This document shows, piece by piece, positions 53,603 to 61,854 of a stretch of DNA of 64,000 nucleotides. How positions within the stretch are numbered: position 1 is the stretch's first letter; every line of letters begins with the position of its first letter. Below the pieces are notes generated by a model. It searched no databases. It was not told where the DNA came from and worked only from the letters and a program-made list of their open reading frames with translations. A program made the position numbers and the translations under genes. The DNA comes from a virus (taxonomy: Duplodnaviria > Heunggongvirae > Uroviricota > Caudoviricetes). The stretch spans positions 246,418 to 310,417 of IMG/VR virus record IMGVR_UViG_3300009784_000001. The stretch is one strand, 5' to 3'.

Positions 53603-53633
53603 TTTGAAATTAAAAAATAAATTTATATCTTTG
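53603..53633 (+). promoter_or_regulatory. Bacteroidota-type promoter at the start of the RNA island
   Basis: TTTG-N19-TATCTTTG. Confidence 0.8.
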
Positions 53634-53742
53634 CAGTGTAATTCAAATGAATTAGTGTTGAAGTGATAACTGAGTAAGAACATGATACTTCAAATAAATG
53701 TAGTGAGAGATGTACAGCTTTATTCATTTTTTTAGATAAGGT

Positions 53743-53864
53743 TCCCCTGTAGCTCAGTTGGTTAGAGTACTTAAAATGAAGTTTTCTGGGTAGGAAATGT
53801 TCAGCAATATCAATCAAAATCGCTGTTAACGAAGGGGTCGGCAGTTCGAGTCTGTCCAGGGGTT
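53743..53864 (+). ncRNA. tRNA-Asn(GTT)-like RNA with a 48-nt insert (53773-53820) in the anticodon stem
   Basis: Removing the insert restores CTTCG-CTGTTAA-CGAAG; D and T arms canonical; T1:T72 mismatch, T73. Confidence 0.85.
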
Positions 53865-53911
53865 CAAAGATTTCTTATTTAGATTAAAATAAGTGGCAGA
53901 GAAGAGGATTA

Positions 53912-53968
53912 AGAAAACATACAGCATTTTTTATCAATTCAACCATAGGAAAGAAAAAGTGTTTTCTG
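53912..53968 (+). ncRNA. Stand-alone stem-TACAGCA RNA module, copy 1
   Basis: AGAAAACA-TACAGCA...TGTTTTCT-G. Confidence 0.75.
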
Positions 53969-54355: not shown

Positions 54356-54484
54356 AGGAAAGGTACAGCAAATTGAATTAAAATTCTATTTACAATTTTA
54401 CTATGAGGAAGAGAGCTTTCATCTAAAATAGGTGGAAAACAACTCTCAAAGAAATGAGTACTTCTCTAAAAACTCTCTTTCCTG
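54356..54484 (+). ncRNA. Stand-alone stem-TACAGCA RNA module, copy 2, with a large structured interior
   Basis: AGGAAAGG-TACAGCA...TCTTTCCT-G. Confidence 0.7.
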
Positions 54485-55079: not shown

Positions 55080-55165
55080 GGCTATGTGGCGTAATTGGGA
55101 GCCGCAGGGGACTTAAAATCCCCTCTCCTGTAAAGGAGGTACAGGTTCAAGTCCTGTCATAGCTA
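55080..55165 (+). tRNA. tRNA-Leu(TAA)
   Basis: GGGGA-CTTAAAA-TCCCC, long variable arm. Confidence 0.92.
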
Positions 55166-55168
55166 CGA

Positions 55169-55289
55169 TGAGAATTAGCTCAGTTGGTAGAGCAAAGGTA
55201 TTATAAAAAGTTTCTTGAATAAGAAATGTTCAGCAATATTTAAAAATGGGAACTTTATGTCAGCAGTTCGAGCCTGCTATTCTCATCCA
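55169..55289 (+). ncRNA. tRNA-like RNA (Pro TGG-like) with ~45 extra nt in the anticodon loop
   Basis: Acceptor TGAGAAT/ATTCTCA-T-CCA, canonical D/T arms, stem AAGGT/ACTTT enclosing 52 nt ending TGGGA. Confidence 0.8.
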
Positions 55290-55292
55290 CAT

Positions 55293-55366
55293 TTTCTGGT
55301 AGTTCAATTGAATAGAACCTTCGGCTTCTACCCGAAAAGTTGGGAGTTTGAATCTCCCCCAGAAAG
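55293..55366 (+). tRNA. tRNA-Arg(TCT)
   Basis: TTCGG-CTTCTAC-CCGAA. Confidence 0.9.
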
Positions 55367-55383
55367 CAAAATAAATAGAAAAA

Positions 55384-56231: not shown

Positions 56232-56419
56232 CGAGAGGTAGCTTAATGGCAGAGCGCAGTCGGAATGTAAAATTGCAATTTAATGTTCTTAAACAAGACT
56301 GAATGGTGTGCTGTGAAAGTTTGAAAAAAGTGAATACAAACTGAATGGGGTTGCAAACCTTGCAAGTTATGATGCTTGAAGTAGAATGAGTAATTGAGGT
56401 TCAATTCCCACCCTCTTGA
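56232..56419 (+). ncRNA. 188-nt tRNA-like RNA with greatly expanded anticodon and variable regions
   Basis: Acceptor CGAGAGG/CCTCTTG-A, D arm GCTT-AATGGCA-GAGC, CAGTC/GACTG stem, GGTTCAATTCC T loop. Confidence 0.7.
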
Positions 56420-57968: not shown

Positions 57969-57976
57969 CAAAAATA

Positions 57977-58048
57977 GAGAGTATAGCATAATCTGGTAAG
58001 TGTGCCTTCCAAGTGGGAAGGAGATGTGGTTCAAATCCAATACTTTCT
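57977..58048 (+). ncRNA. Atypical tRNA-like RNA with a non-canonical anticodon loop
   Basis: GAGAGTA/TACTTTC acceptor, D arm, CCTTCC-AAGTG-GGAAGG, GGTTCAAATCC; no U33. Confidence 0.65.
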
Positions 58049-58056
58049 GCAAAAAT

Positions 58057-58214: not shown

Positions 58215-58290
58215 CGGATAGTAGGGAAGCTCGGTCGTTCCCGCCTGCCCTGGACGCAGGAGATCATAGGTTCAAATCCTGTTTATCCGA
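58215..58290 (+). tRNA. tRNA-Pro(TGG), variant loop with C33 and A37
   Basis: CCTGC-CCTGGAC-GCAGG, C1-G72, A73. Confidence 0.85.
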
Positions 58291-59787: not shown

Positions 59788-59841
59788 AGAAAACATACAG
59801 CATTTTTTCAATTTTCAATGGGAGAAAAAAAGTGTTTTCTG
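59788..59841 (+). ncRNA. Stand-alone stem-TACAGCA RNA module, copy 3
   Basis: AGAAAACA-TACAGCA...TGTTTTCT-G, near copy of 53912. Confidence 0.75.
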
Positions 59842-61443: not shown

Positions 61444-61516
61444 GGGATAGTAACATAGAAGTTTATGTGCTGGTCTGAAAAACCAGAAATGCTTGAGGCG
61501 GTATCAGCCTATCCCA
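61444..61516 (+). tRNA. tRNA-Phe(GAA)
   Basis: CTGGT-CTGAAAA-ACCAG; atypical T loop GGCGGTA. Confidence 0.8.
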
Positions 61517-61702: not shown

Positions 61703-61773
61703 GCTGTGTTAGTATAAGAGTATTACATTGGCTTTGTAACCCAAAAATGGGGATGCGATTTCCTCACACAGCT
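61703..61773 (+). tRNA. tRNA-Thr(TGT)
   Basis: TTGGC-TTTGTAA-CCCAA, acceptor GCTGTGT/ACACAGC. Confidence 0.85.
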
Positions 61774-61782
61774 CTAAATTAA

Positions 61783-61854
61783 GGGCTTATCATATAATAG
61801 CTATTATGCCACCCCTGCAAGGTGGTTATTGGAGTGCAATTCTCCATAGGTCCA
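61783..61854 (+). tRNA. tRNA-Ala(TGC) with C33
   Basis: G3:T70 wobble, A73, CCACC-CCTGCAA-GGTGG. Confidence 0.85.

What the first reader, a model, noticed from the sequence alone, without database searches (positions are those of the whole stretch)
55169..55289. Second tRNA mimic (Pro-TGG-like) carrying the same module at a different position
Seen: canonical acceptor, D and T arms with an encoded CCA (unlike the canonical tRNAs here). The anticodon stem AAGGT/ACTTT encloses 52 nt containing GTTTCTT-GAAT-AAGAAAT-G-TTCAGCAATAT and ending TGGGA. The hairpin differs from the Asn copy by pairing-preserving changes, while GAAATGTTCAGCAATAT is identical. T1-A72 and T73 do not fit Pro identity (C1-G72, A73 in the two real Pro tRNAs). 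Two independent insertions with a conserved structure argue for selection.
Basis: partly seen in the sequence, partly recalled or inferred. Interest (0 to 1): 0.8.

Follow-up and report, generated by a model that had tools for sequence, protein, structure and literature searches.

The report
tRNA-shaped RNA with Ro60-type handle
This phage gene looks like a tRNA whose anticodon loop is replaced by a conserved hairpin-plus-CAGCAA 'handle'; the same kind of RNA occurs in many phages and gut bacteria, almost always with a gene for a Ro60-shaped ring protein, so it is probably that protein's uncatalogued RNA partner and not a proline tRNA or an intron.

Summary
Observation confirmed in every detail. 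The element (360-kb jumbo phage) has canonical acceptor, D and T arms and CCA. Its anticodon loop is replaced by 52 nt holding a 7-bp hairpin, 2 nt and TCAGCAA. This handle is a circular permutation of five free-standing stem+ACAGCA RNAs in the genome, one abutting a DUF2828 gene whose model matches Ro60 (top 13 PDB hits). I collected 163 distinct 'handle-tRNAs'. All 7 handle pairs covary. A DUF2828 gene was present in 34/35 phage records (5/26 tRNA-bearing controls) and within the same <=8-kb locus in 67/69 bacterial or metagenome loci. Three annotated 'pseudo-tRNAs' of vibriophage KVP40 belong here. 'Pro' is only partly right: TGGGA recurs above chance, but close relatives end differently and the body is not Pro-like. 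Best reading: an unspliced Y-like partner RNA, topologically the inverse of YrlA, which displays tRNA parts to tRNA-acting enzymes. Binding, expression and function are untested; a short intron is disfavoured, not excluded. This scan found the same family earlier on other DNA (e1-5353747, e1-5340904, e1-5595794). I found no paper or Rfam entry.

The parts
55169..55289 (+). Whole handle-tRNA gene (type II: handle replaces the anticodon loop), 121 nt with encoded CCA
55169..55199 (+). 5' tRNA half: acceptor strand, D arm, 5' anticodon-stem strand AAGGT
   Evidence: helices 93-99% paired with compensatory changes in 43 homologues
55200..55209 (+). A-rich 5' linker; similar TATAAAAAGT-type linkers in other type II members
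55210..55227 (+). Handle helix GTTTCTT-GAAT-AAGAAAT (strand B, G-first tetraloop, strand A)
   Evidence: all 7 pairs show two-sided changes, 92.7% paired; loop starts with G in 55/59
55228..55236 (+). 2-nt spacer and box TCAGCAA (family consensus ACAGCAA)
55245..55251 (+). Single-stranded AATGGGA: 3' half of a TGG anticodon loop (TGG, G37, A38)
   Evidence: same 7-mer in the free module at 59788
55252..55289 (+). 3' tRNA half: ACTTT, variable loop, T arm, acceptor strand, T73, CCA
53743..53867 (+). Sister handle-tRNA (type I: handle after nt 28/29, intact CT-GTT-AA loop); handle at 53781-53807
53912..53968 (+). Free-standing, unpermuted handle RNA (strand A, 2 nt, ACAGCA, cargo, strand B, G)
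54356..54484 (+). Free-standing handle RNA with long cargo
59788..59841 (+). Free-standing handle RNA displaying TTTTC-AATGGGA-GAAAA
59851..59932 (+). Free-standing handle RNA with anticodon-arm-like and T-arm-like cargo
53626..53634 (+). Bacteroidota-type -7 promoter consensus (TAnnTTTG) upstream of the RNA cluster; function inferred
55080..55367 (+). Run tRNA-Leu(TAA), this element, tRNA-Arg(TCT) with spacers of about 3 nt: co-transcription and co-processing inferred

Best explanation
It is an unspliced, tRNA-shaped partner RNA of the phage's Ro60-like DUF2828 protein. SHOWN: a tRNA body carries, in place of the anticodon loop, a covarying 7-bp helix + 2 nt + NCAGCAA handle; the handle is a circular permutation of free-standing RNAs in the same genome; such genes are tightly linked to DUF2828 genes; the phage's DUF2828 protein (genome 357212-358810, outside the window) models as a Ro60 fold and has a handle right before its start codon. 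INFERRED: the RNA is cut from the Leu-X-Arg transcript by normal tRNA processing and stays about 121 nt long; the handle docks on the Ro60-like ring, as the stem of a Y RNA does on Ro60; the tRNA elbow, CCA end and single-stranded UGGGA are presented to tRNA-acting enzymes. My most likely purpose (about 0.35 on its own) is management of tRNA attack during infection: a protected decoy or tether for host anticodon nucleases and for repair enzymes. The confidence given is for 'unspliced partner RNA of the DUF2828 protein'.
For: Handle helix: 7/7 pairs with two-sided changes in 43 sequences. Unbiased check: in a pattern scan that fixed no pairing, the outer 5 pairs formed at 4-5/5 in 25/28 hits with a D-arm start and in 2/28 other hits. 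Same geometry, including the G after strand B, in free and permuted copies. Linkage: DUF2828 homologue in 34/35 phage records with a handle-tRNA, the miss an 8%-complete fragment; 0/46 records without one and absent from T4; 5/26 viral contigs picked by a canonical tRNA pattern; within the same <=8-kb locus in 67/69 loci found by an RNA pattern alone, mostly right downstream of tandem arrays. AlphaFold model (pLDDT 76) has Ro60 structures as its top 13 Foldseek hits, best 9kop, E 1.2e-6, TM 0.52. Not built for decoding: A32 in 18/85 intact loops against 6/324 canonical tRNAs; anticodons unusual for bacteria in 14/85 against 19/351; anticodon swaps on near-identical bodies; canonical Pro-TGG (two) and Asn-GTT genes already present. 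Precedent: YrlA joins a Ro-binding stem to a tRNA-like domain at the anticodon-arm position (PMC4201824; bioRxiv 10.1101/312249).
Against: No binding, expression or processing data. Linkage counts include related genomes (about 20 independent phage lineages; mostly Lachnospiraceae among bacteria), so p-values overstate. In this genome the protein gene lies 55 kb from the RNA. The protein does not need this RNA form: long model hits in only 3 of 9 cultivated DUF2828 phages, and the phiM12 hit lacks the box. The insertion site of type I members is strikingly constant (76/85 after nt 28 or 29), which an intron would also explain. Structural likeness to Ro60 is moderate (TM about 0.5, 10-14% identity). 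The purpose is not constrained by any test.
Confidence: 0.7

Rival explanations
1. The 45-nt insert is a new kind of short tRNA intron; the DUF2828 ring recognises the handle and brings a nuclease and ligase, giving a 76-nt tRNA (loop AT-TGG-GA).
For: A single deletion restores a 5-bp stem with U33 and R37 here and in 106/163 members; 76/85 type I inserts lie after nt 28 or 29; GTT members mostly keep G73. Both inserts of this genome have T|A...AAAAT junctions. The phage encodes ATP-grasp RNA-ligase-family proteins.
Against: 57/163 members cannot be restored even with a free choice of cut, while 80% of canonical tRNAs pass with none; several have lost the anticodon arm altogether. The product here would have A32, T1-A72 and T73, unlike either Pro tRNA, and is redundant. 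The handle also exists with no exons. No tRNA splicing endonuclease or RtcB in the genome. Far too short for group I/II; no Rfam intron hit.
Confidence: 0.12
2. The tRNA body is only a processing and stability scaffold: it yields a durable handle RNA that titrates or gates the Ro60-like protein (a handle also sits in that gene's leader), and the residual anticodon letters are passengers.
For: Handle directly before the DUF2828 start codon; bodies and anticodons are highly variable; Chen et al. proposed nuclease protection as a role of the YrlA tRNA fold (PMC4201824).
Against: Anticodon-like words are enriched in the 3' linker (TGTTAA 16 against 1.5, TGGGA 7 against 1.0), and 85/163 keep a whole loop with U33 and R37; free handles also display anticodon-like hairpins. 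Enrichment could still be inherited from tRNA ancestors.
Confidence: 0.25
3. The unspliced RNA is aminoacylated or enters the ribosome or an EF-Tu-dependent path, acting as an amino-acid donor or translation modulator while tethered to the ring.
For: Perfect 7-bp acceptor, canonical T loop, CCA; acceptor 99% paired in the family.
Against: No matching identity set (T1-A72, T73, broken anticodon loop); the bulky arm should not fit a decoding site (inference); acceptor sequences are not conserved.
Confidence: 0.1
4. A decayed tRNA pseudogene hit by a small repeat, without function.
For: Automatic annotation calls the KVP40 homologues pseudo-tRNAs; weak single-sequence fold.
Against: Intact arms and compensatory changes in all helices across phages of Vibrio, Aeromonas, Cronobacter and Synechococcus and in gut Clostridia; tight linkage to one protein family.
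Confidence: 0.03

Closest known systems
YrlA-type bacterial and phage Y RNAs with Rsr/Ro60 (Rfam RF02553; Chen et al. 2014, PMC4201824; Wang et al., bioRxiv 10.1101/312249; Thermus phage phiLo Ro60, PMC12135203)
   Same: A protein-docking helix with a short conserved box stands where the anticodon arm would be; D arm, T arm and acceptor-like stem mimic tRNA; encoded with a Ro60-fold protein; several RNAs per locus. M. smegmatis YrlA is opened by RNase P and gains CCA.
   Different: Inverse connectivity: YrlA has its ends in the docking stem and a closed acceptor; here the ends are in a normal acceptor with CCA and the docking stem is closed by a tetraloop. The box is NCAGCAA, not GNCGAAN0-1G. 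The protein is DUF2828+DUF7788, not Pfam TROVE. Many members keep an anticodon loop, which YrlA lacks.
Vibriophage KVP40 tRNA-Pseudo-3, -4 and -5 (GenBank AY283928) and equivalents in F86, 1.081.O, BUCT-ZZ01, Ahp1, GAP32, phiWae14
   Same: Same family: same helix, spacing and box inside a tRNA body; F86 193184-193306 is 71% identical over 95% of this element.
   Different: Annotated only as pseudo-tRNA, tRNA-OTHER or not at all; I found no description of the handle or of the link to DUF2828.
Dictyostelid Class I RNAs (Rfam RF01414; Kjellin et al. 2021, PMC7919456)
   Same: Short stem with an adjacent conserved box; 4 of the 5 near-invariant positions (C6, C9, A10, A11) match the box here; a G follows the 3' strand.
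   Different: Eukaryotic, about 60 nt, ends-closed stem, no tRNA body; RF01414 finds nothing in this genome; T3 is G here.
tRNA introns (archaeal/eukaryotic BHB introns; bacterial group I introns in anticodon loops)
   Same: An insert in the anticodon arm whose removal can restore a cloverleaf.
   Different: No group I core, no splicing endonuclease, a third of members not restorable, and the module also exists without exons.
T4 stable RNAs species 1 and 2 (rnaC, rnaD)
   Same: 120-140-nt RNAs inside a phage tRNA cluster; rnaC has a tRNA-like T arm.
   Different: Neither has the handle geometry, the model finds only ordinary tRNAs in T4, and T4 lacks DUF2828.

Membership tests
YrlA / bacterial Y RNA | Scores with Rfam RF02553 | tested here: not met
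   No match in the genome; only a 20.7-bit partial hit spanning tRNA-Leu and this D arm, cut-off 69
YrlA / bacterial Y RNA | GNCGAAN0-1G Ro-binding motif near the 5' end | tested here: not met
   Box is TCAGCAA, internal
YrlA / bacterial Y RNA | Docking stem formed by the 5' and 3' ends, acceptor closed | tested here: not met
   Ends form the acceptor; handle closed by a tetraloop. Met by the free-standing copies
YrlA / bacterial Y RNA | tRNA-like D and T arms with elbow residues | tested here: met
   T8, A14, G18 and T-loop GTTC.A..C invariant in 43 homologues
YrlA / bacterial Y RNA | Encoded with a Ro60-fold protein | tested here: met
   DUF2828 gene in the genome models as Ro60; adjacent in 67/69 loci, but 55 kb away here; Pfam TROVE itself absent
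YrlA / bacterial Y RNA | Bound by the Ro protein in vivo | not testable with these tools
   Needs pull-down or gel shift
Canonical tRNA-Pro | C1-G72, A73 and a 7-nt Y32-U33-TGG loop | tested here: not met
   T1-A72, T73, 52-nt loop; best excision gives A32
tRNA intron (BHB or group I) | Group I core, or splicing endonuclease available | tested here: not met
   45 nt, no Rfam intron hit; no PF01974 in the phage; host not known
tRNA intron (any kind) | Excision restores a canonical anticodon arm | tested here: inconclusive
   Possible here and in 106/163 members; impossible in 57
tRNA intron (any kind) | Spliced product seen in RNA | tested here: inconclusive
   No RNA run covered the tested homologue, so no test
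Dictyostelid Class I RNA | Scores with RF01414; ends-closed stem with 11-nt box | tested here: not met
   No match; 4/5 near-invariant box positions agree
T4 rnaC/rnaD | Shared sequence or structure module | tested here: not met

The most novel reading that the evidence does not exclude
The handle is a protein-addressed, removable module: the Ro60-like ring binds it and directs cutting and joining (or charging) of the host tRNA body, so that phages and gut bacteria keep a reserve of masked tRNAs, or of swappable anticodon baits, switched on through a ribonucleoprotein. That would be a short-intron or tRNA-masking system without precedent in bacteria.
Probability: 0.12. Interest if true: 0.92.

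Novelty: new variant of a known kind. Interest (0 to 1): 0.63.

Why it matters
If the handle binds the DUF2828 ring, this is a second, uncatalogued branch of the Ro60/Y-RNA system, present in at least 666 GenBank phage records by its protein and in gut Lachnospiraceae. Its RNAs have the inverse topology of YrlA and often keep anticodons, which makes the open question of what the tRNA-like domain of bacterial Y RNAs does directly testable. It also explains 'pseudo-tRNAs' long annotated in KVP40, and it warns that 110-130-nt 'intron-containing' tRNA calls in phage genomes may not be introns. Cultivated carriers (KVP40, GAP32, BUCT-ZZ01) make the tests routine.

Tried and rejected
T4 rnaC/rnaD homology, suggested by the position of the F86 genes: rejected. 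Classic TROVE, RtcB and YrlA in the genome: none. Exact 17-mer scan of viral contigs: 22 hits, none in a tRNA context; most follow a group I intron-like GATATAGTCC stretch. Alternative hairpin YTGRRTA/TGTTCAG, preferred by single-sequence folding: only 63% paired in homologues, rejected. First combined pattern: no hits. PDB sequence search with the DUF2828 protein: nothing significant. RNA evidence: no RNA holder listed for the KVP40 stretch, and four host RNA runs gave no reads on it, so there was no test; the window itself was not searched because only one search was allowed. Sigma-70 promoter scan: at chance level. Two reviews on bacterial Y RNAs were not held, so a brief mention there cannot be excluded. 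DUF2828 literature search: nothing on RNA partners. No complex prediction was sent, as RNA cannot be the partner.

Full report
Setting. The window is 246418-310417 of a complete 359,943-nt, 26% G+C viral record. TAnnTTTG promoter words before its gene clusters suggest a Bacteroidota host (inference). The element lies between tRNA-Leu(TAA) and tRNA-Arg(TCT) with spacers of about 3 nt, so co-transcription and release by ordinary tRNA processing are likely (inference).

Observation. Every stated feature is present at the stated place: 7-bp acceptor, D arm, 5-bp stem AAGGT/ACTTT around 52 nt, canonical T arm, T73 and CCA. The shared 17-mer is exact and unique to the two inserts, about 1e-8 by chance. 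Both real Pro tRNAs have C1-G72 and A73, and the canonical tRNAs of the window do not encode CCA. The RNA alone folds no better than shuffles and favours another register, so the structure had to be tested on homologues.

Homologues. BLAST found a 71%-identical full-length copy in Vibrio phage F86, then the KVP40 group, where three are annotated tRNA-Pseudo-3, -4 and -5, a cyanophage, an Aeromonas phage and a 735-kb phage. A pattern that fixed no base pairs gave 67 viral contigs. Among distinct hits with a D-arm start, 25/28 formed 4-5 of the 5 unconstrained handle pairs, against 2/28 of the other hits. A scan of GTDB gave 78 stretches, mostly Lachnospiraceae. My detector finds 163 distinct members and only the two expected ones in this genome. 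In 43 aligned members all 7 handle pairs show two-sided changes (92.7% paired, partly by selection); the rival hairpin is 63% paired.

Anatomy. The handle is strand B, a G-first tetraloop, strand A, 2 nt, NCAGCAA. The genome also holds five clear free-standing copies in the order strand A, 2 nt, ACAGCA, cargo, strand B, G: four in the tRNA cluster and one ending at the start codon of a gene at 357212 (9 hits at 2-nt spacing against 1-4 at other spacings). The G after strand B is kept in both orders (55/59), so the two are circular permutations of one module. Members fall into type I (85; handle after nt 28 or 29 in 76, intact anticodon loop behind it; the Asn copy) and forms in which the handle replaces the loop (78; this element). 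Both types occur side by side in unrelated phages, so they are not fresh insertions here. Handles are more alike within a locus (0.68) than between loci (0.52), which explains the identical 17-mer.

The Pro question. A clean cut could give AT-TGG-GA, AT-TAT-AA, AT-TAT-GA or AT-TAG-GA. TGGGA is enriched in 3' linkers (7 against 1.0), two other loop-replaced members also read AT...TGGGA (L112, L239), and the free RNA at 59788 displays the same AATGGGA as a hairpin loop. So the motif is probably meaningful. But the closest relatives end ATGGG, GTAAA or GGTAA, and the body is not Pro-like.

The protein. The gene at 357212 is DUF2828+DUF7788 (PHROG 850 'RNA-binding protein'). Its AlphaFold model (pLDDT 76, pTM 0.73) has Ro60 structures as all 13 Foldseek hits with E<0.001. 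Homologues occur in 34/35 records with a handle-tRNA, 0/46 without and not in T4, and 5/26 viral contigs chosen by a canonical tRNA-Asn pattern. In 67/69 bacterial and metagenome loci the gene lies in the same <=8-kb stretch, usually right behind one to four handle-tRNAs; no other conserved neighbour was evident in the 19 loci inspected. One handle-tRNA lay on a 32%-complete contig without the gene. The converse is weaker: 3 of 9 cultivated DUF2828 phages gave long hits, confirmed as handles in GAP32 and phiWae14. These counts include relatives. The lead to DUF2828 came from earlier scan notes; the tests are mine.

Intron or not. For: excision is possible here and in 65% of members, the type I site is constant, and the phage has RNA-ligase-family genes. 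Against: 35% cannot be restored although the cut is free, while 80% of canonical tRNAs pass; A32 is ten times commoner (18/85 against 6/324); odd anticodons three times commoner (14/85 against 19/351); anticodons swap on near-identical bodies; canonical genes are already present; the handle exists without exons; no splicing endonuclease or RtcB. No RNA data could be brought to bear. I put the intron at 0.12.

Mechanism. Most likely an unspliced 121-nt RNA whose handle docks on the Ro60-like ring and whose tRNA elbow, CCA end and UGGGA are offered to tRNA-acting enzymes (0.7 for the partnership). YrlA gives the precedent: Ro-binding stem at the anticodon-arm position, tRNA-like D and T arms, described as a circularly permuted tRNA (PMC4201824; bioRxiv 10.1101/312249). 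Ro proteins of jumbo phages have been placed among RNA-repair systems that counter tRNA cleavage (PMC7824862), and the phiLo protein binds Y-like RNAs and host PNPase (PMC12135203). A decoy or repair-tether role is my best guess for purpose (about 0.35); a plain scaffold that titrates the protein is the main rival.

Comparison and verdict. It works like a Y RNA but fails the YrlA membership tests (model, motif, topology, TROVE family). The box resembles that of dictyostelid Class I RNAs at 4 of 5 near-invariant positions, without a model hit. I found no paper or Rfam family for it, though two relevant reviews were unavailable. Verdict: real, selected, a new variant of the Ro/Y-RNA kind, untested at the bench; interest 0.63.

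Noticed in passing
G000:C1:52286-52411 (minus strand; outside the window): A third interrupted tRNA (Thr-TGT call by ARAGORN) with an unrelated 48-nt G+C-richer insert in the D-arm region and no CAGCAA handle.
   Followed up: no
window 56232-56419: 188-nt tRNA-shaped RNA with long inserts, behind its own TAnnTTTG promoter word; no handle.
   Followed up: no
window 59788-59841 and 53912-53968: Free handle RNAs whose cargo ends in a hairpin with loop AATGGGA, or a CATA-containing segment, like anticodon-loop halves.
   Followed up: partly
L024:1418-1456 (G000 about 357174-357212): Handle whose 3' strand ends at the ATG of the DUF2828 gene: possible autoregulation by the protein.
   Followed up: partly
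L024 and upstream, G000 352018-358810: The DUF2828 gene follows ORFs that look from their N-terminal sequence like a kinase, an isochorismatase/nicotinamidase-type enzyme and a vWA protein; not checked by family search except PHROG 7371 for the vWA one.
   Followed up: no
L039:1455-1581 and L089:3718-3847: Handle-tRNAs on long-variable-arm bodies with a duplicated 5' anticodon strand, which allows two pairings; one has a CTA (amber) anticodon.
   Followed up: no
L242-L318: Chromosomal cassettes in Lachnospiraceae and others (Meiothermus, Fusibacter, Acidaminobacter): one to four handle-tRNAs directly before a DUF2828 gene; some lack the anticodon arm entirely.
   Followed up: partly
window 61444-61516, 61703-61773, 61783-61854, 57976-58050: tRNAs missed by ARAGORN (Phe, Thr, Ala) and an atypical Thr-AGT; Pro at 58215 has loop CC-TGG-AC without U33 or G37.
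   Followed up: no
L001, L004, L006 and similar: Gut phages share the exact 17-mer right after a GATATAGTCC stretch, apparently the 3' end of a group I intron; probably coincidence.
   Followed up: no
L224:1319-1435 (minus) and L336:1501-1621: Other 117-121-nt tRNA-like genes with anticodon-arm inserts that lack the CAGCAA box.
   Followed up: no
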